Shown one piece after another: positions 651 to 64,000 of a stretch of 64,000 nt of DNA. The stretch is from a phage. The notes below the pieces were generated by a model. That model was not told where the DNA came from, made no database searches, and was given only the letters and a program-made list of their open reading frames with translations. The position numbers and the translations under genes are program-made. Every line of letters begins with the position of its first letter. Position 1 is the stretch's first letter. The stretch is from the NCBI GenBank assembly GCA_025830695.1, contig GCA_025830695.1_4111.1. One strand, 5' to 3'.

Positions 651-3565
<2,915 letters not shown>

Positions 3566-3650: not shown

Positions 3651-4953
<1,303 letters not shown>

Positions 4954-4959
4954 CTTGAA

Positions 4960-6324
4960 ATGTATAAATCAGTCGAGGGAATGATGAGTAAAATTAAGCT
5001 TACGGATAAGCAACAAGAAATCTTTGATGATTTTATAGATCGTGTTTACAACTATGCAGGTAAAACAATTTCAGTTTTATCTGCACCAGCAGGAACTGGA
5101 AAAACATTCACTACTGCTGAGATTGTAAAAGCACTATGTAAAAATTATAATATTGCAGTAACTTCACCTACACATAAAGCCAATGCTGTTATTCGTAATA
5201 TGCTAATTAATAATGCTGGTCTTACTAAGGAAGATGCACAAGTCAGTACTATACACTCTTTTTTAGGATTAAAATTAGTATATGAAAAGAATCGTCAAGT
5301 ACTGAAGCATGATCCACAAAGTAAAGTTAGTAATACTAACGTTGACATTCTTATTGTTGATGAGTGTAGTATGATTTCAGATGAACTATTCCAGCACATA
5401 CAAGACCAATTGTGGCGTGTCCGTCGAGCAGTTTTATTCATTGGTGATCGTTGTCAATTGCCTCCAGTTGAGTCAGAAGGAACAATGGGCGAGACTAAAT
5501 TGTCTCCTACGTTTGATGTACCTGTTCAATATGAGTTAACTGAGGTTTTACGACAAGCATTAGATAATCCGATTCTGGCAGTTGCAACTGCTATTCGTGA
5601 GTGTATTGGAACTAGTAAAAATCCATTTGATATTATGCACCAAACATATGGTTTAAGCACTATTACACCTATTGATGATGAAGATTTGTTTTTGAATGTT
5701 TATCGTGAATTCATTATGGAAAACAAGGGGTCATCTAAAAAAATATTTGATTTCGTAAATGAAAATAAAATCTTAGCATATACTAACTATAGAGTTAATT
5801 TGGCTAATATCTACATTAGAAGTCAACTATTTGAAGTACCAGATGAATTTACTAAAGGTGAGCCAATTGTTTTTGAAAGCATAACTGAGAATAGTCCATA
5901 TGTAGTACAACAAATTATACAATGTCCTGAAGTAAAACGTGAAAGTTTCATGGGAATAGATTGTTGGCAATTCCGTTTACCTAATGGTAGTTATATTTTA
6001 GGTGTAGGACCAGAAACAAGAATTGCAATGGACGAAAAACTTGATAAACTTGTTAAGGATATTGAGAAAAAAGAAATAAATCCATTGACAAAGAAACCAT
6101 ATATGTGGCAGGATTACTATGTAATTAAGAACAAATTACATATCATCAATTATCCTTATGCAACCACTGTTCATAAATCACAAGGAAGTACTTTTGATAA
6201 CATTTGGTTTGATACTGATTTTATTGAACGTATTGGTACAAATGATACTAAGTGTAGAATTTTATACACTGCCATGACACGCCCACGCTATAGTGTTATG
6301 TTGAGGCAAAATGCACGATTCTAA
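4960..6324 (+). CDS. dda: Dda-like SF1 DNA helicase
   Basis: Walker A APAGTGKT, DECSM (Walker B) and C-terminal TVHKSQGSTF...TAMTR motifs. Confidence 0.85.
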   Translation: MYKSVEGMMSKIKLTDKQQEIFDDFIDRVYNYAGKTISVLSAPAGTGKTFTTAEIVKALCKNYNIAVTSPTHKANAVIRNMLINNAGLTKEDAQVSTIHSFLGLKLVYEKNRQVLKHDPQSKVSNTNVDILIVDECSMISDELFQHIQDQLWRVRRAVLFIGDRCQLPPVESEGTMGETKLSPTFDVPVQYELTEVLRQALDNPILAVATAIRECIGTSKNPFDIMHQTYGLSTITPIDDEDLFLNVYREFIMENKGSSKKIFDFVNENKILAYTNYRVNLANIYIRSQLFEVPDEFTKGEPIVFESITENSPYVVQQIIQCPEVKRESFMGIDCWQFRLPNGSYILGVGPETRIAMDEKLDKLVKDIEKKEINPLTKKPYMWQDYYVIKNKLHIINYPYATTVHKSQGSTFDNIWFDTDFIERIGTNDTKCRILYTAMTRPRYSVMLRQNARF

Positions 6325-45267: not shown

Positions 45268-45279
45268 TAACCTTTTCCA

Positions 45280-45345
45280 TTGTCCATTGCAATGCTTTCT
45301 TTACAGAAGAATAAATGAAACACTTAATTGAACTGGATACATAAA
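45280..45345 (+). pseudogene. decayed 3' remnant of a 45648..45863-like gene
   Basis: about 60 nt closely similar to the 3' end of ORF 45648..45863, with an in-frame stop. Confidence 0.45.
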
Positions 45346-45522
45346 ATGACACATGAAGAATGGATAGAGTCACTAAAATATAAACATGATCATTTTGGAT
45401 TTGGTATACGCCAAGGCCATTATGATGTTTTGAACGATAAAAAAACGTTCGAATCATTGGTTTTGGACGAAGATTCCAACCACTGGTTCATCTACGAGCT
45501 TGCTATTAGAGATAAAAAATAG
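45346..45522 (+). CDS. MTHEEW-family small protein (copy B)
   Basis: internal ATG of track ORF 45328..45522. Confidence 0.5.
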   Translation: MTHEEWIESLKYKHDHFGFGIRQGHYDVLNDKKTFESLVLDEDSNHWFIYELAIRDKK

Positions 45523-45527
45523 TAAGA

Positions 45528-45863
<336 letters not shown>

Positions 45864-45864
45864 A

Positions 45865-46047
45865 ATGACACACGAAGAATGGATGTCCAAACAGCATAAA
45901 GAACATGACTGCTTTGGGAATGGCATTCGTCAGGTACATTATGATATATTAAGAGATGAAAATCTTTTCAGGTCATATGTTTTGGATACCAGAAAACCCT
46001 GGTTTATATGCGAACTGGCATTTAGAAAGTCAAATAATCAAAACTAA
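45865..46047 (+). CDS. MTHEEW-family small protein (copy C)
   Basis: internal ATG of track ORF 45847..46047. Confidence 0.5.
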   Translation: MTHEEWMSKQHKEHDCFGNGIRQVHYDILRDENLFRSYVLDTRKPWFICELAFRKSNNQN

Positions 46048-46063
46048 ACAAGGAATACAAAAA

Positions 46064-46282
46064 ATGGAAACAACTTTATTTGAAGTTATTCAATCATTAA
46101 AACCTGAAGATGAGGTTCAAGTACTACTACATGGTTATCGTGTAAAAGGTACTGTGGTTTTAGTCAATGATACAACATTGGTTATTACAGAAACAAACCC
46201 ATATGATAGTAATCAACTTGCCAATATCCATATCGATATCACTGGAATTATTGGTGTCGGTGTATCTAAAACACTTGCATAA
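46064..46282 (+). CDS. hypothetical protein
   Basis: internal ATG of track ORF 45956..46282 with AAGGAAT RBS. Confidence 0.45.
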   Translation: METTLFEVIQSLKPEDEVQVLLHGYRVKGTVVLVNDTTLVITETNPYDSNQLANIHIDITGIIGVGVSKTLA

Positions 46283-46335
46283 ATCATTAATTCATTATAT
46301 AATGATTATCACTGGTTCTAGATGAGGATAATATT

Positions 46336-46608
46336 ATGCATTTTGAAAAATTCAACGTAAATCGTAACACACGCATTGAAGTTCTTTATGAAACTCAAGA
46401 CACCATTAGTATTCGTACAAGTAGTGGGGATGTATATCATGACTGTACGATTGGCTGGGAACAGGGAAGGACGCGTAGTGCAGTATTTGATAATTATCGC
46501 TTTTATCAAGGAGACACTACGATTTGGCCTGAATACGTAGAAGATATTGCGTTTGAAGATGAACATAAAGATGAATTTATCAAATTTAATCCTCAAACTG
46601 AATCATAA
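46336..46608 (+). CDS. hypothetical protein Confidence 0.45.
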   Translation: MHFEKFNVNRNTRIEVLYETQDTISIRTSSGDVYHDCTIGWEQGRTRSAVFDNYRFYQGDTTIWPEYVEDIAFEDEHKDEFIKFNPQTES

Positions 46609-46612
46609 ATAA

Positions 46613-46742
<130 letters not shown>

Positions 46743-46745
46743 AAT

Positions 46746-46846
<101 letters not shown>

Positions 46847-46848
46847 CA

Positions 46849-47009
<161 letters not shown>

Positions 47010-47013
<4 letters not shown>

Positions 47014-47170
47014 CACATGAAGAATGGATGAATGACATTAATTTTAGATATTCGGGTATCGGTAAATGGCTAAAGTATCATTGGGAATTCATTTCAGAGC
47101 CACATCTGTATGATAAACTTATCAACGATCCAGCATATGAAATGTACTTAATTGAACTACTGGTACGATT

Positions 47171-47174
<4 letters not shown>
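47010..47174 (+). CDS. MTHEEW-family small protein (copy E)
   Basis: near-identical to copy D over the first third; ATGA-coupled. Confidence 0.45.
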
Positions 47175-47336
<162 letters not shown>

Positions 47337-47344
47337 AAAAAAAG

Positions 47345-47758
<414 letters not shown>

Positions 47759-47815
47759 CTAAATAATTCAGTACTGAGGATATTAATATGTTTAAAGATG
47801 AACGTCCAGATTTGT

Positions 47816-47853
<38 letters not shown>

Positions 47854-47857
47854 GAAT

Positions 47858-48201
47858 TCCACAATCAGACGTATATGGTGTAAGTTACGTCGATGCAATC
47901 CAGAACAAGATCTCTGGTACTCTAGGAAGTGGTGAATGTTAACCTAGACGGGTTTGATAATTGGACGATAGGCAATTATTACTTGACTAGCAGGTTTAAA
48001 CTAGAGGTGACTATCCTTCACCAAACTGGAAAACCGGATGGACTTTTATTTAAAAGGGTAAGGCGTGGAAATATGTTTACAGAAGTTGCTTTTAGTAGCC
48101 TGTACGCCCCACGTCAAGGTAGCCGAAAGGCAAGTTAAGACGGGTGGTTATAAAGCTGAATTAACAGCGGCGTTTAAAAGCGTCACCATCCATTTTTTTT
48201 T
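47858..48201 (+). ncRNA. candidate structured non-coding RNA
   Basis: ORF-poor, GC-richer stretch between a promoter and a hairpin + T-run; long-range complementarity (GGTGAA...TTCACC), GAAA tetraloop CCGAAAGG. Confidence 0.35.
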
Positions 48202-60304: not shown

Positions 60305-60726
60305 GAGGCTATAATAAGATTTGTATTTTTGTATTTTTAGTTTGTGCATTCAATTCGTTTGGTTACTACTGTACAGAAAATAATATTTCATATGGTTTAA
60401 ATCCTTTGTGGTTTACAATTTCCAATGTAGCACAAATTGGTATTGCTCTTATGTCTGCACTTATGTTCTGTCCAATTGTCACTATGGATACTGATCATGA
60501 AAGGCTTGGATTTCTCCGTGATACTGGAGACGAACCTTACAGTAGATTGATTGTGTTGTATCCATTTATTGTTATTTTAGGTACTAACATCCAACTTGGG
60601 TCATTATCTAATAGTGTTACATCAGCAGCTATTGCTATATTTGCATTCACATTTTTTATGGTACACAAATCAGTACTTAATTGGTATATCACAAAAATGG
60701 CAGAAGAAGGTACTAAAAATACTTGA
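60301..60726 (+). CDS. multi-pass membrane protein Confidence 0.5.
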   Translation: MRGYNKICIFVFLVCAFNSFGYYCTENNISYGLNPLWFTISNVAQIGIALMSALMFCPIVTMDTDHERLGFLRDTGDEPYSRLIVLYPFIVILGTNIQLGSLSNSVTSAAIAIFAFTFFMVHKSVLNWYITKMAEEGTKNT

Positions 60727-60751
60727 CATAATTTAGTATGTTATATATAAT
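60723..60751 (+). promoter_or_regulatory. sigma-70-like promoter (TTGACA-17-TATAAT) Confidence 0.6.
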
Positions 60752-61043: not shown

Positions 61044-61072
61044 TTGACATAACAAATAATATGGAGTACAAT
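61044..61072 (+). promoter_or_regulatory. sigma-70-like promoter (TTGACA-17-TACAAT) Confidence 0.55.
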
Positions 61073-61111: not shown

Positions 61112-61372
61112 ATGAAATCTATTCTCGTTGCAGTTAACTTGGTTGCTTCCCCATCTTTCAACTTCAAACAAGTTGTTGCTGATAATCTGAAGAAGATCTG
61201 TCCAAACGCTGAATTAACTTTCTGTGTGTTTGATTCAGAAAAAGTAACTAAAGTTGATCTAAACTATCTTTTGAACGAAGTAAAAAGCGTTTCTGGTGAA
61301 AGTAACTTAAAAGTTCTTCATGATATTGCTGATGATTATGATGATACACTTGTAATTTCGGAGAAATTCTAA
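61112..61372 (+). CDS. hypothetical protein Confidence 0.5.
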   Translation: MKSILVAVNLVASPSFNFKQVVADNLKKICPNAELTFCVFDSEKVTKVDLNYLLNEVKSVSGESNLKVLHDIADDYDDTLVISEKF

Positions 61373-61377
61373 ATAAA

Positions 61378-61797
61378 ATGTTTAGATTTCTTCAGTACTT
61401 AATCATTAAGTTCTTTGGTTATCATACGATTGAAGGAAAAGCTACACTTGCACATAAAATCTTTGTAGCATTATGTACGGGTGATTATGACGTATTGAAT
61501 AAGTACTGTAAATCGCAAGCATGTATTGATATAATGGCACTTCGTATCTATGAGTGCCAGTTCAATAGATATAATTTTTACCAGTACAGATTTGATAAAG
61601 AAGAATTTGATAGCATCAAAATGCTAAAGAATTTATGTAACAATAAAAAGAATATGCATATATCAGAATTTGTTGCTTTGTATTTTTATTTAAAAAGTTC
61701 ATTGTATATGAACACGATGCAAAGATTCGATACTAGAATTAATGTATTCACCGATAAAGAATTTTATATATACGATAAATTCTTAGATAAGGTTTAA
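61378..61797 (+). CDS. hypothetical protein Confidence 0.5.
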   Translation: MFRFLQYLIIKFFGYHTIEGKATLAHKIFVALCTGDYDVLNKYCKSQACIDIMALRIYECQFNRYNFYQYRFDKEEFDSIKMLKNLCNNKKNMHISEFVALYFYLKSSLYMNTMQRFDTRINVFTDKEFYIYDKFLDKV

Positions 61798-61798
61798 T

Positions 61799-62296
61799 AT
61801 GACAACTGTTTATATTGATAAACGATTAAATTTATTGATTACCGATTCTAGAGTTACGTCAACTATACCACGAAACTTATTTGGTTTTTTCCCACTAAGA
61901 CCAAAATATCAATATGGAGTTGTTAATCAAAAAACTTTATATGTACATGACCGTTTATTCAGTGCTAGTGGGGTAGTAAGTGAAATTGATAAAGTACTGG
62001 ATTGGTTAATTAATAAAGTACCAGTTATACCTGACAGAAAGTTAAGTTGCCATTGTGTGCTTCTTTCTAAAGATTATGTTATTCATATGATTTTAACTAA
62101 AGGAAAGTTTATTAAAAAACTTGAATATCTACATGAAGACTACACTTTCTTTATGGGAAGTGGTGGAGAATACATGCTAGATGCTGCTATTCATGAAGAA
62201 CATACAACTTTATATGATAAAGTGTTTAGTACTTTCATGGATGTGCACAACCATGATTGCTTCACAGATGATAATATTAATGTATATCGATTTTGA
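61799..62296 (+). CDS. hypothetical protein Confidence 0.5.
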   Translation: MTTVYIDKRLNLLITDSRVTSTIPRNLFGFFPLRPKYQYGVVNQKTLYVHDRLFSASGVVSEIDKVLDWLINKVPVIPDRKLSCHCVLLSKDYVIHMILTKGKFIKKLEYLHEDYTFFMGSGGEYMLDAAIHEEHTTLYDKVFSTFMDVHNHDCFTDDNINVYRF

Positions 62297-62317
62297 TTTC
62301 GTCATTAGGAGATGTAA

Positions 62318-63283
62318 GTGAAAAAGCTTGATTTAAATACAATTGCCGAAGAAGTTCTGGATGAATGTTTTGCTAATGAAGAAGTCAACACACTAGAAGC
62401 CTTAGATTTCGTTGAAGATAAAGATGATAATGAAGGTAAAGTACAAAGCAGTTTCAAATATAATATTACACTTAAGCGACCACCAAATGTTTCCAATGAA
62501 GATCTAATTCGTGATATTCAAGCTGGTATCAATGTAAAGAAAAACACTGAACTGTTAGTTCGTTACAATTATGGACTGATTATTGATGTAGCAAGTAAAT
62601 GTACTTGTTATATCCCATTTGAAGATAAGATTTCATATGGTGTTGAGGGGTTCATGAGAGCACTAAAAACCTTTGATCTTAATAAGAATGTTAAGTTCAT
62701 TACCTATGCTTCTTCTAGTATTTACATGACAGTCTATAACGAAAGTTCTGACGCTAACTATATGGTACACTTCCCACGTTATATGAGTGTTCATAAGATC
62801 AAAGTAAAAAGATTCTGCCAGGAATATATGCGTAAACATGGTGTTCGCCCAACACCTGAAATAATCTCAGAGGGTACTGGGATTGAGATTCAGCATGTTA
62901 ATAATTGTTTATTATTTCAAAGCGAATACACTTCACTGGATGCACCATTAGACGGTGTTACAGATGGTACATTAGGTGACATTATTCATTCACCTGCTTC
63001 TGATTTTAACCTCAATGTTGATAGTATCCGTGCACCTTTACGTTATGCTATCAATGAACTAACTAACGAATTGAGTACTAAAGAACGTGAGATTATCCAG
63101 CGTGTTCATGGTCTAGGTGAATATGAACCTGAAACGCTTCGTGAGATTGCTGATAATGGTTTTGTTGATGATAATGGAAAATATGTTAAATCCCGTTCAT
63201 CAATACACCGAAAGTACAGTGAAGCTATGCAAAAGCTTAAGAAGTTAGTACTTGCAAAAGGGTACGAATACGAAGATTTCTAA
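62318..63283 (+). CDS. sigma-70-family RNA polymerase sigma factor
   Basis: region 2 (VEGFMRALKTFD...KFITYASSSIY) and region 4 HTH (LSTKEREIIQRVHGLGEYEPETLREIA...HRKYSEAMQKLKK); GTG start 6 nt after an AGGAG RBS. Confidence 0.75.
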   Translation: MKKLDLNTIAEEVLDECFANEEVNTLEALDFVEDKDDNEGKVQSSFKYNITLKRPPNVSNEDLIRDIQAGINVKKNTELLVRYNYGLIIDVASKCTCYIPFEDKISYGVEGFMRALKTFDLNKNVKFITYASSSIYMTVYNESSDANYMVHFPRYMSVHKIKVKRFCQEYMRKHGVRPTPEIISEGTGIEIQHVNNCLLFQSEYTSLDAPLDGVTDGTLGDIIHSPASDFNLNVDSIRAPLRYAINELTNELSTKEREIIQRVHGLGEYEPETLREIADNGFVDDNGKYVKSRSSIHRKYSEAMQKLKKLVLAKGYEYEDF

Positions 63284-63290
63284 AGAACAA

Positions 63291-63317
63291 GGGTTGGCTT
63301 ATGCCAACCTTTTTTTA
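63291..63317 (+). terminator. rho-independent terminator
   Basis: GGGTTGGC-TTAT-GCCAACC + T7. Confidence 0.7.
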
Positions 63318-63319
63318 TG

Positions 63320-63933
63320 GGATGAAGTAAAAGTTTGTGATATAATTATCTTGTACAATTCTGTTGGCATGATATTCATGTACCTGATCCACTCGAAAAC
63401 GTAGAGGGCAGTTGAGCAGTCCGACAGTGCGAACAGCAAAAGAAACCCGTTAGATGTGGGCATAGTTTGAACCCCTCACGGCAATGCGGCTGTATAAAGA
63501 ACCACGTTAGGATAGCTGGTGGTTCCTTGATAGACATATAAGGATAACACCTTACGAATTATCTAAGGGAGAGTTATCGAATTTTGTACAGGAAAGTTGC
63601 GTCCAAAATTTGAGTACTCACATTAAGTATTTGATTGCATAGATACTTAATGAAGATACACTATGTTTAAAAGTGTAGACCGTCATATGAAACTGAAGTA
63701 GAGAGAAACAGGATGACCCGCTTTCGCACTCGTTATGAGTAATCTTCAATGCAATAGCTCTGATACCATCAGCGTCAAATTTCCCTCCTTGTGGGGGGAA
63801 GAAAAATCCCTTCCTCAAATCCCGTCAATATTAAAAGTCCTTGACAGTTATTAATCATTCGCGTAGAATACGTAGTATTAGAAGCGAACAGACATCTCGA
63901 AGAGATGGATGATTAACCATTAAGGAATATCCA
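63320..63933 (+). ncRNA. long ORF-free, GC-richer region; candidate structured RNA or long leader
   Basis: about 600 nt with no plus-strand ORF of 60 aa or more, in an otherwise tightly packed genome; visibly higher GC; TG-extended -10 at its 5' end; internal hairpins. Confidence 0.35.
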
Positions 63934-64000
63934 ATGAATTCAGTAATCTTTTTAGTAATAGCTTTTTCTGTTAATTCCGGTGTACAAATAACCCCAATGA
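63934..64000 (+). CDS. hypothetical membrane protein, 5' part (continues beyond the window)
   Basis: ATG with AAGGAAT RBS; hydrophobic N-terminus. Confidence 0.4.
   Translation, partial: MNSVIFLVIAFSVNSGVQITPM

What the first reader, a model, noticed from the sequence alone, without database searches (positions are those of the whole stretch)
62318..63283. Sigma-70-family sigma factor with regions 2 and 4
The 321-aa protein carries a recognisable region 2 and a region 4 helix-turn-helix. This is a conventional sigma-70-family architecture rather than the minimal, highly diverged late sigma typical of T4. It uses a GTG start after a strong RBS and is followed by a terminator and then a roughly 600-nt ORF-free region.
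Basis: partly seen in the sequence, partly recalled or inferred. Interest (0 to 1): 0.7.

Follow-up and report, generated by a model that had tools for sequence, protein, structure and literature searches.

The report
Jumbo-phage RpoD-like sigma factor gene
The ORF is a real but already annotated sigma factor of 121Q/PBECO4-type jumbo coliphages, with untested promoter specificity (probably a conserved "middle" promoter class), and the "empty" DNA after it encodes an apparently undescribed, highly structured ~480-nt RNA.

Summary
Window 62318-63283 (+) is a 321-aa GTG-start ORF with an AGGAG RBS and a strong terminator, as described. Profiles, PDB sequence search and an AlphaFold model all identify a sigma-70-family protein with sigma2, sigma3 and sigma4.

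The window is an Asteriusvirus jumbo coliphage (99.9% to SHEFM2K). [quoted passage not shown] So the finding is correct but known.

It is not fully conventional. It has no region 1.1/1.2, the Trp dyad is Ser-Ser, and region 4.2 carries a conserved beta-hairpin insertion (RERIRQ becomes RSSIHR). Relatives also encode a separate gp55-like late sigma.

Genome-wide I find three promoter classes:
- sigma70-consensus early promoters, which drive the sigma operon;
- T4-like TAAATA late promoters;
- a middle class, G-R-R-A-C-R-N13-TGnTATAAT, before replication genes, tRNAs and the late-sigma gene.

My best but unproven inference is that this sigma reads the middle class.

The ~650-nt ORF-free stretch holds such a promoter followed by a 476-nt pseudoknotted RNA (63352-63827). 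It occurs 4-5 times per genome and in one Citrobacter integrated element. 44 base pairs show compensatory changes. It has no Rfam match.

The parts
60723..60751 (+). Early promoter with sigma70 consensus (TTGACA-17-TATAAT, 12/12) at the head of the gene block that ends with the sigma gene
   Evidence: same class genome-wide
61044..61072 (+). Second sigma70-type early promoter (TTGACA-17-TACAAT, 11/12) upstream of the four-gene run 61112-63283
62307..62311 (+). Shine-Dalgarno AGGAG, 6 nt before the GTG start
   Evidence: sequence read directly
62318..63283 (+). Sigma-70-family sigma factor gene, 321 aa (= 121Q gp167, phAPEC6 gp066c, G17_00146)
62318..62464 (+). N-terminal acidic region (aa 1-49), predicted disordered, with the clade-conserved motif KKL(D/N)L..I..E(V/I)L(D/N)ECF. 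There is no region 1.1/1.2 profile hit.
62543..62767 (+). sigma2 domain (aa ~76-150). It keeps the equivalents of sigma70 N383, L386, D403, F419, K426, F427, T429 and Y430. W433/W434 are Ser-Ser, Q437 is Met and T440 is Tyr.
62780..62995 (+). sigma3 domain (aa ~155-226). The sigma70 H455/E458 equivalents (the extended -10 TG readers) are Tyr and Val.
63020..63262 (+). sigma4 domain (aa ~235-315) with the HTH
63155..63190 (+). Clade-specific insertion (aa 280-291, NGFVDDNGKYVK) inside the region 4.2 HTH, modelled as a beta-hairpin. It is followed by the recognition helix SRSSIHRKY (sigma70: TRERIRQIE).
63289..63312 (+). Intrinsic terminator of the sigma operon (10-bp stem, then a T-run to ~63319)
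   Evidence: also annotated in G17
63319..63346 (+). Middle-class (M) promoter GGGATG-N13-TGATATAAT pointing into the ORF-free region
63352..63827 (+). Structured non-coding RNA gene, copy 1 of a family with 4-5 copies per genome. Its ends are inferred from the promoter and from family conservation, not mapped.
63841..63869 (+). sigma70-type early promoter (TTGACA-17-TAGAAT) for the next gene, which starts at 63935

Best explanation
The ORF encodes the RpoD-like sigma factor of Rak2-like ('group 2') jumbo phages. It has sigma2, sigma3 and sigma4 domains and no region 1.1.

Shown: its identity, its domain set, its conservation across five genera, and its position at the end of an operon headed by perfect host-sigma70 promoters and closed by a terminator.

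Inferred: it is made early by host holoenzyme, binds host core RNA polymerase (these phages encode no polymerase of their own), and redirects it to the clade-conserved middle promoters G-R-R-A-C-R-N13-TGnTATAAT. On this reading, the retained A-11 and T-7 pocket residues read a TATAAT-type -10 element, and the remodelled, insertion-bearing region 4.2 reads GRRACR instead of TTGACA.

Those promoters precede replication and nucleotide-metabolism genes, tRNAs, the structured RNA next door, and the gene for the gp55-like late sigma. That gives a cascade: host sigma70, then this sigma, then the gp55-like sigma acting on TAAATA late promoters.

My confidence in the identity is about 0.97. My confidence in the promoter assignment is about 0.45.
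For: Identity: Pfam r2, r3 and r4 hits; TIGR02393 6e-25 and TIGR02937 above its cut-off; PHROG 351 1.9e-60; PDB phmmer finds RpoD, SigA and RpoS down to 7e-17; the AF2 model has confident sigma2/3/4 domains and all top Foldseek matches are sigma chains, the best being 5ipl_F at 2.8e-11.

Conservation: orthologues at 99% to 31% identity in Asteriusvirus, RaK2, Munch, GAP32/CBB and XbC2 share the same idiosyncrasies.

Early expression: consensus sigma70 promoters at 60723 and 61044 and a terminator at 63289. The CBB paper also places its orthologue in the early block.

Third promoter class: the strict pattern occurs 17 times, all on the transcribed strand, against 0 in shuffles. The relaxed pattern occurs 31 times on the transcribed strand and once on the other, against 5.5 in shuffles. 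These promoters sit before the topoisomerase, helicase, SSB, DNA polymerase, ClpP/ClpX-like and late-sigma gp237c genes, and before tRNAs (with 23-27).

Conserved footprint: the consensus GRRACR-N13-TG(G/A)TATAAT holds over 31 distinct promoters from many genera. It equals the 'TGAAACG...TATA' class reported for CBB and GAP32.

Late genes instead carry TAAATA 31-50 nt before the start codon, and a gp55-like sigma exists. That makes three promoter classes for three sigmas.

Residue logic: the sigma70 -10 pocket residues are kept, while region 4.2 changes from RERIRQ to RSSIHR with R584 kept. This fits the same -10 paired with a different -35.

No T4 AsiA or MotA homologue is detectable.
Against: No experiment links this sigma to any promoter.

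TGnTATAAT is the classic extended -10 element, which host sigma70 can use without a -35 element (established knowledge). This sigma lacks the sigma70 residues that read TG (H455, E458), the -12 position (Q437, T440) and the W433 wedge.

An M-class promoter also drives the RNA copy in a Citrobacter integrated element where no such sigma is known, though only 8 kb of that element was seen.

The co-occurrence of the sigma and M promoters is confined to one clade, so it is not independent evidence.

The AsiA/MotA negative result comes from tblastn only and is weak.
Confidence: 0.55

Rival explanations
1. It is a genuine sigma factor, but the M promoters are read by host sigma70 through their extended -10 element, with the GRRACR box bound by an unidentified phage activator or by nothing. 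The phage sigma then serves another promoter set that my motif search did not resolve.
For: M promoters carry a perfect TGnTATAAT. The phage sigma lacks the sigma70 TG and -12 readers. An M-type promoter is present in a Citrobacter integrated element. GAP32, XbC2 and CBB have an HTH regulator two genes upstream of the sigma gene.
Against: The dyad and k-mer searches of all intergenic regions found only three promoter classes. That leaves no orphan motif for this sigma. GRRACR is conserved at a fixed N13 spacing, as a sigma-read -35 element would be. No AsiA or MotA homologue was found.
Confidence: 0.28
2. The sigma is a replacement housekeeping factor. After host sigma70 is inactivated, it keeps the phage's own sigma70-like early promoters (TTGACA/TTGCAA-N16-17-TATAAT) running. 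It does not open a new promoter class.
For: The best profile and structure matches are group 1/2 sigmas. The -10 pocket residues are retained. Early promoters are very numerous: 62 strict matches on the transcribed strand.
Against: The region 4.2 recognition residues that read TTGACA (E585, R588, Q589) are all changed and the HTH is interrupted. No mechanism for inactivating sigma70 was identified.
Confidence: 0.12
3. It is a decaying or non-functional acquired host gene, or a sigma-like protein that sequesters core RNAP or an anti-sigma factor without directing initiation.
For: Pfam r2 and r4 fall just below their gathering scores. Core-binding region 2.2 residues Q406, E407 and N409 are changed.
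Against: The ORF is intact and syntenic across five genera from 99% to 31% identity, with clade-specific motifs under conservation. All three domains fold confidently.
Confidence: 0.05

Closest known systems
121Q gp167 / PBECO4 / phAPEC6 gp066c / G17_00146 'RNA polymerase sigma factor' (Asteriusvirus)
   Same: The same gene: 99.1-99.7% amino-acid identity, the same start, and the same neighbours and terminator.
   Different: Nothing of substance differs. These are annotations only, with no functional data.
CBB_513 / GAP32_490 / RaK2_244 / Munch_487 RpoD-like sigmas of Rak2-like jumbo phages
   Same: Orthologues at 31-46% identity. They share the missing Trp dyad, the region 4.2 hairpin insertion and the N-terminal motif. 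The CBB orthologue lies in the early gene block, and the CBB and GAP32 genomes have a 'TGAAACG + TATA' promoter class before DNA-synthesis genes and a gp55-like late sigma.
   Different: The recognition helix differs (SRSSIHRKY here, SKATLSRRY in GAP32). The box differs in parallel (GGGACA/GAGACA here, GGAACR/GAAACR there). This is suggestive co-variation, not proof.
E. coli sigmaS / sigma70 and other group 1-2 sigmas (closest solved structures: 5ipl_F, 7ye1_F, 4jk1_X)
   Same: The sigma2-sigma3-sigma4 architecture and fold, with the -10 A-11/T-7 pocket residues retained.
   Different: About 25% identity. It has no region 1.1/1.2 or non-conserved region. W433/W434, Q437, T440, H455, E458, E585, R588 and Q589 are replaced. 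There is an insertion in the HTH. It scores 88 bits against the 354-bit TIGR02393 cut-off.
Bacillus phage SPO1 gp28 and gp33/34 sigma cascade (from my own knowledge)
   Same: It would work the same way: phage-encoded sigma-70-family factors made from host-type early promoters replace the host sigma on host core RNAP, to switch on middle and then late genes.
   Different: No homology was tested here. SPO1 uses two sigma-70-type steps, whereas here the late step uses a T4 gp55-type factor.
T4 middle (AsiA/MotA) and late (gp55/gp33/gp45) transcription
   Same: Three temporal promoter classes. Middle promoters combine a good or extended -10 element with a non-sigma70 upstream box. Late promoters are TATAAATA-like and are read by a gp55-type sigma.
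   Different: T4 remodels host sigma70 rather than replacing it. No AsiA or MotA homologue was found in phAPEC6.
For the neighbouring RNA: large ornate phage-associated RNAs (ROOL, GOLLD), and primer transcripts of origins (ColE1 RNA II; T4 oriF/oriG middle-promoter R-loops)
   Same: Size of about 480-570 nt, many covarying helices with conserved loops, phage association, and proximity to stable-RNA genes. Like the T4 origins, it is driven by a middle-type promoter and occurs several times per genome.
   Different: It matches no Rfam 15 family, including ROOL, GOLLD and RNase P. No function was tested.

Membership tests
Sigma-70 family (Pfam Sigma70_r2/r3/r4; NCBIfam TIGR02937) | Region 2 (core binding and -10 recognition) | tested here: met
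   PF04542 E 7e-5, aa 80-140 (23.0 bits, just under the gathering score of 24). It is covered by TIGR02393 aa 79-283 at 6e-25. The fold is confident.
Sigma-70 family (Pfam Sigma70_r2/r3/r4; NCBIfam TIGR02937) | Region 3 | tested here: met
   PF04539 scores 37.8 bits against a cut-off of 25.3, aa 162-226.
Sigma-70 family (Pfam Sigma70_r2/r3/r4; NCBIfam TIGR02937) | Region 4 helix-turn-helix | tested here: met
   PF04545 E 3e-5 (23.8 bits against 24.1), but only profile positions 4-28. The AF2 model shows helix 274-279, a beta-hairpin insertion, then the recognition helix 293-314. Foldseek aligns through sigma4.
Sigma-70 family (Pfam Sigma70_r2/r3/r4; NCBIfam TIGR02937) | Whole-protein curated cut-off | tested here: met
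   TIGR02937 scores 44.7 bits against a cut-off of 42.9.
Sigma-70 family (Pfam Sigma70_r2/r3/r4; NCBIfam TIGR02937) | Binds core RNAP and confers promoter-specific initiation | not testable with these tools
   This needs biochemistry.
Group 1 primary sigma (RpoD equivalog) | Regions 1.1 and 1.2 present; equivalog score reached | tested here: not met
   There is no PF03979 or PF00140 hit. Residues 1-49 are disordered. TIGR02393 scores 88 bits against 354, and NF004208 scores 64 against 555.
Group 1 primary sigma (RpoD equivalog) | Promoter-reading residues W433/W434, Q437, T440, H455/E458, R584/E585/R588/Q589 | tested here: not met
   They are SS, M, Y, Y/V and R/S/H/R respectively; only R584 is kept.
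T4 gp55-type late sigma | Minimal region-2-only protein related to gp55 | tested here: not met
   It has full sigma2-4 domains, and all profile and fold matches are to sigma-70 regions 2-4. A separate gp55-like gene (phAPEC6 gp237c) exists outside the window.
Rak2-like jumbo-phage RpoD-like sigma clade (PHROG 351 subset) | Orthology with 121Q gp167, CBB_513, GAP32_490 and RaK2_244, with shared clade motifs | tested here: met
   PHROG 351 at 1.9e-60. Identity runs from 99% to 31% with full-length coverage. All orthologues lack the Trp dyad, carry the G[FY]xDx[KN]G[KR] insertion and share the N-terminal motif.
Neighbouring RNA: any Rfam 15 family (including RNase P, ROOL, GOLLD, 6S, tmRNA) | Covariance-model match | tested here: not met
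   There is no relevant hit at gathering scores or at E<=10. ARAGORN finds no tmRNA. The family HMM does not hit E. coli rnpB.

The most novel reading that the evidence does not exclude
This sigma, through its insertion-bearing region 4.2, is the dedicated reader of the clade-wide GRRACR-N13-TGnTATAAT promoters. It forms the middle step of a three-sigma cascade: host sigma70, then the phage RpoD-like sigma, then the gp55-like sigma. One of its main outputs is a previously undescribed, multi-copy, pseudoknotted RNA of about 500 nt. That RNA is shared with an integrated Citrobacter element and may be a replication-origin primer or a self-assembling 'ornate' RNA.
Probability: 0.3. Interest if true: 0.7.

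Novelty: already known. Interest (0 to 1): 0.35.

Why it matters
The sigma gene itself adds nothing new. It is annotated in dozens of genomes and is cited as the hallmark of RNAP-less 'group 2' jumbo phages. What is still missing in the literature I could read is its promoter specificity.

The three-class promoter map derived here gives a directly testable assignment, and it names concrete templates in this window: E at 60723, M at 63319.

The larger return is next door. The 'ORF-free' region is a gene for a large, covariation-supported RNA family that Rfam lacks and that some annotators currently cover with spurious small ORFs. It is transcribed from the same promoter class as the phage tRNAs and replication genes. 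If it proves to be a replication primer or an RNA-only assembly, it would bear on how 350-kb phage genomes replicate or defend themselves.

Tried and rejected
1. RNase P RNA idea for the downstream element. By eye, and in a MAFFT alignment with E. coli rnpB, several blocks resembled CR-I, CR-IV and CR-V. I rejected this. The Rfam RNase P models give nothing at E<=10. The 'CR-I-like' GAAAAYGUA is the loop of a covarying hairpin (helix 1). The family HMM does not hit rnpB.

2. Homology to the RNA-seq-defined ncRNA001/002 of the relative PA5oct. nhmmer finds nothing. ncRNA003 and ncRNA004 were not fetched.

3. Exact CBB motifs in phAPEC6. TGAAACG is not enriched and TATAAATA is rare, at 15 sites. 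The classes exist, but as GRGACA and as nTAAATA.

4. T4 AsiA and MotA homologues. tblastn gives a best E of 0.14 for AsiA and nothing for MotA. This is a weak negative.

5. Operon partners of the sigma. There are no Pfam domains. PHROGs are of unknown function, apart from a weak HslV-family hit for the upstream ORF.

6. PADLOC on the Citrobacter locus proteins found nothing meaningful.

7. Pattern-scan false positives were discarded after inspection or nhmmer: L033, L035-L038, L048 and L049.

8. RNAalifold's pairing of columns 318-320 with 458-460 was replaced by the covarying pseudoknot helix 457-461/492-496.

9. A long-range pairing of GAUGA with UCAUC near the 3' end was inconsistent across copies and is not claimed.

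Full report
OBSERVATION. The ORF at 62318-63283 (+) is real. It encodes 321 aa, GTG is the first start codon after the upstream stop, and AGGAG lies 6 nt upstream. A strong intrinsic terminator follows at 63289-63312. The next 650 nt hold only ORFs of 66 aa or fewer on either strand. GenBank records of near-identical phages use the same start. The N-terminus is conserved in orthologues down to 31% identity.

WHAT IT IS. Pfam finds Sigma70_r3 above threshold. It finds r4 (23.8 bits against 24.1) and r2 (23.0 bits against 24) just below threshold. NCBIfam aligns aa 79-283 to RpoD_Cterm at 6e-25, and the sigma-70 superfamily model TIGR02937 passes its cut-off. PHROG 351 'RNA polymerase sigma factor' scores 1.9e-60. 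phmmer against the PDB returns only sigma factors, the best being RpoD 7ye1_F at 7e-17. An AlphaFold2 model has mean pLDDT 70.9 with domain values of 75-90. It shows a disordered acidic N-terminus (aa 1-49) followed by confident sigma2, sigma3 and sigma4 domains. Every top Foldseek match in the PDB is a sigmaS, SigA or sigma70 chain.

WHERE IT COMES FROM, AND PRIOR KNOWLEDGE. The window is 98-99.9% identical to Asteriusvirus jumbo coliphages: SHEFM2K, SP27, PBECO4, 121Q and phAPEC6. The protein is 99.1-99.7% identical to their annotated 'RNA polymerase sigma factor', which is 121Q gp167, phAPEC6 gp066c and G17_00146. Orthologues at 31-46% identity exist in RaK2, Munch, GAP32, CBB, BF, fHe-Yen9 and XbC2.

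The literature already describes this class:
- CBB_513 has regions 2, 3 and 4 and lies in the early block. The CBB and GAP32 genomes also have a gp55-like late sigma and a second promoter type, 'TGAAACG + TATA', before DNA-synthesis genes (PMC5259590).
- Iyer et al. make phage sigmas, both a minimal version and an RpoD-like version, the defining trait of RNAP-less 'group 2' jumbo phages (PMC7824862).
- Genome reports repeat the annotation without experiments.

The finding is therefore correct and already known.

HOW IT DEPARTS FROM A CONVENTIONAL SIGMA. I aligned it with E. coli sigma70 and sigmaS, with 11 close relatives, and with RaK2, Munch, GAP32 and XbC2. The clade shows five features.
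(i) It has no region 1.1/1.2. Instead it has a conserved motif KKL(D/N)L..I..E(V/I)L(D/N)ECF in a disordered acidic tail.
(ii) It keeps the equivalents of sigma70 N383, L386, D403, F419, K426, F427, T429 and Y430. From established structural work, these are residues of the A-11 and T-7 pockets.
(iii) It replaces W433/W434 with Ser, Thr or Ala residues, Q437 with Met and T440 with Tyr. It also replaces the extended -10 readers H455 and E458 with Tyr and Val.
(iv) It changes region 2.2 residues Q406, E407 and N409.
(v) It carries an insertion of about 8-11 residues, G[FY]xDx[KN]G[KR], between the two HTH helices of region 4.2. The insertion is modelled as a beta-hairpin. The recognition helix reads RSSIHR instead of RERIRQ, and only R584 is retained.

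This explains why Pfam r4 matches only half its profile. The protein fails every RpoD, RpoS and FliA equivalog cut-off. It belongs to the sigma-70 family but not to any cellular group.

PROMOTER LANDSCAPE. I fetched the whole phAPEC6 genome and searched its intergenic regions for enriched k-mers and dyads. Three classes emerge.

E class (early): sigma70 consensus, either UP-rich (AGTAC)TTGCAA or TTGACA-N16/17-TATAAT. Some are terminator-promoter hairpin modules, GGGTTGACTTCGGTCAGCCC-T5-TATAAT. There are 62 strict matches on the transcribed strand against 15 in shuffles. Two of them, at window 60723 (12/12) and 61044 (11/12), head the block that ends with the sigma gene.

L class (late): nTAAATA at a fixed 31-50 nt before the start codons of head, portal, baseplate and sheath genes. 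This is the T4 type. phAPEC6 gp237c is the gp55-like sigma.

M class (middle): G(G/A)GACA-N13-TGnTATAAT. There are 17 strict matches, all on the transcribed strand, and 0 in shuffles. The relaxed pattern gives 31 matches on the transcribed strand and 1 on the other, against 5.5 in shuffles. These promoters lie before the topoisomerase/gyrase-like, Dda-like helicase, DnaB-domain, SSB, DNA polymerase, Clp and Nudix/glutaredoxin genes, and before the gp55-like sigma gene itself at 156042 (with 23-27). In the window they occur at 4616, 11333, 40974, 41957, 46614, 48404, 48586 and 63319. Those at 46614 and 48586 end 7-11 nt before tRNA-Ser genes.

A footprint over 31 distinct promoters of the RNA family described below, drawn from many genera, gives G-R-R-A-C-R-N13-TG(G/A)TATAAT. 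This is the published CBB/GAP32 'TGAAACG' class.

MECHANISM. Three promoter classes match three available sigmas: host sigma70, this protein, and the gp55-like protein. The most economical reading is a cascade in which this early-made sigma reads the M class. It is consistent with the retained -10 pocket residues, which fit the same TATAAT, and with the rebuilt region 4.2, which fits GRRACR instead of TTGACA. It is also consistent with parallel differences between Asteriusvirus (SRSSIHRKY with GGGACA) and GAP32-type phages (SKATLSRRY with GGAACR). No AsiA or MotA homologue is detectable.

The link is inferred, not shown. TGnTATAAT can be used by sigma70 alone, and this sigma lacks the known TG readers. 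An M-type promoter also drives the RNA in a Citrobacter element where no such sigma is known. I therefore put the promoter assignment at about 0.45. The rival in which sigma70 plus an unknown factor reads M promoters gets about 0.28. The rival in which this sigma is a replacement housekeeping factor on E promoters gets about 0.12.

THE 'ORF-FREE' REGION. A blastn search showed that window ~63383-63830 is conserved at about 70% DNA identity in genera whose sigma protein is only about 35% identical, with 3-5 places per genome. GC content rises to 0.45-0.49 from about 0.31.

phAPEC6 has four copies, at 40.7, 151.3, 230.1 and 285.8 kb. All are on the same strand, in ORF-free gaps, and each lies behind an M promoter. 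Pattern scans of IMG/VR, metagenomes and GTDB genomes added more than 40 copies, confirmed by nhmmer at E<=1e-56.

An alignment of 20 distinct copies (A6) gives an RNAalifold structure of 74 pairs, 41 of them with compensatory changes. I then added a pseudoknot helix that I had seen by eye (GUUGC/GCAAC), which crosses two other helices. With it, 76 pairs in 16 helices are 97.4% paired. The shuffle control gives 83.5% and the slid controls give 41-46%. 44 pairs change on both sides (24 in the shuffles; 0 of 500 shuffles reach 44). The covariation score is 0.401, against 0.141 for shuffles and 0.04-0.08 for slid controls.

Predicted transcripts are 476-570 nt long. In the window the RNA spans about 63352-63827. 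Most copies carry an internal terminator hairpin plus U-run, which is absent from the window copy. Downstream of that, all copies keep a conserved UUCAUUCCCCUGCGGGGGGAUGAA hairpin and a CAAAUCYCGUCA motif.

No Rfam 15 family matches. My first impression of RNase P similarity was tested and rejected. The PA5oct ncRNA001/002 region is not homologous. I found no description of this RNA in the searchable literature. Its function is unknown. The candidates are an ornate RNA of the ROOL/GOLLD kind, or an origin primer transcript analogous to ColE1 RNA II or the T4 middle-promoter origins. Several GenBank records place 4-5 'hypothetical proteins' on this stretch, and these are most likely spurious.

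One full-length copy (E 2e-103) lies in the Citrobacter amalonaticus P55 chromosome. It sits between a large serine recombinase gene and a CI-like repressor gene, next to the ppdD pilin gene. That is an integrated temperate element or satellite.

VERDICT. Interest in the finding as stated is low to moderate. The value added here has three parts: the residue-level description of how the clade departs from cellular sigmas, a testable promoter assignment, and the discovery that the neighbouring 'empty' DNA is a gene for a new large structured RNA.

Noticed in passing
window 63352-63827 (+), with its promoter at 63319-63346; paralogues in phAPEC6 at L005:801-1298, L006:29529-30072 and L007:35209-35711 (all minus strand): A previously undescribed family of large (476-570 nt) pseudoknotted RNAs, with 4-5 copies per Rak2-like jumbo-phage genome. 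76 pairs are 97.4% paired and 44 pairs show compensatory changes. It has no Rfam match. Some GenBank records annotate small 'hypothetical proteins' over it.
   Followed up: yes
window 4616, 11333, 40974, 41957, 46614, 48404, 48586 and 63319 (+): Middle-class promoters G-R-G-A-C-R-N13-TGnTATAAT. Those at 46614 and 48586 end 7-11 nt before the tRNA-Ser genes at 46652 and 48621, so the phage tRNAs and the structured RNA share one promoter class with the replication genes.
   Followed up: yes
L047:3519-4111 (Citrobacter amalonaticus P55, NZ_JBALIF010000001.1): A full-length copy of the RNA family in a bacterial chromosome. It lies inside an integrated element, between a large serine recombinase gene (1845-3407) and a CI-like S24 repressor gene (5047-5730), next to the ppdD/hofB pilus genes. 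It has an M-type promoter (GAAACA-N13-TGGTATAAT) and the same AGTACT excess as the jumbo phages. It may be a temperate relative or a satellite.
   Followed up: partly
whole window (133 sites) and the whole phAPEC6 genome (L002-L009): The palindrome AGTACT occurs 918 times against about 120 expected, and CAGTACTG 198 times against 3.5. It is found in all reading frames and in intergenic DNA. It often abuts the -35 and -10 hexamers of early promoters and lies in terminator stems. The 5-10-fold excess is shared by GAP32, CBB, BF, fHe-Yen9-04 and metagenomic relatives, but not by the PA5oct or T4 loci. I have no explanation.
   Followed up: partly
L002:18695-32239 (phAPEC6 18.7-32.2 kb, minus strand; outside the window): Eight or more near-identical terminator-promoter modules. 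The hairpin GGGTTGAC-TTCG-GTCAGCCC plus its T-run doubles as a TTGACT -35 element 18 nt before TATAAT, so each early gene cassette ends and restarts transcription within about 45 nt.
   Followed up: no
window 61799-62296 (+): The ORF immediately upstream of the sigma gene (165 aa) begins MTTV... and has a weak PHROG 1040 'peptidase HslV family' match (9e-6) but no Pfam hit. It may be an Ntn-hydrolase-type peptidase co-transcribed with the sigma.
   Followed up: no
window 45275-47900 (+): Repeats are clustered around the tRNA genes. There is a 161-nt tandem duplication (46830-47151, 77% identity), a 91-nt repeat (45275 and 45794, 87% identity), and three copies of a promoter-like CTTGACTAAATAGTTCAGTACTG (47332, 47741, 47811).
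   Followed up: no
phAPEC6 155118-155957 (L005:5118-5957, minus strand; outside the window): The gp55-like late sigma gene (gp237c) is preceded by an M-class promoter (GGGACA-N13-TGCTATAAT at 156042). This places late-sigma synthesis under the middle class.
   Followed up: partly
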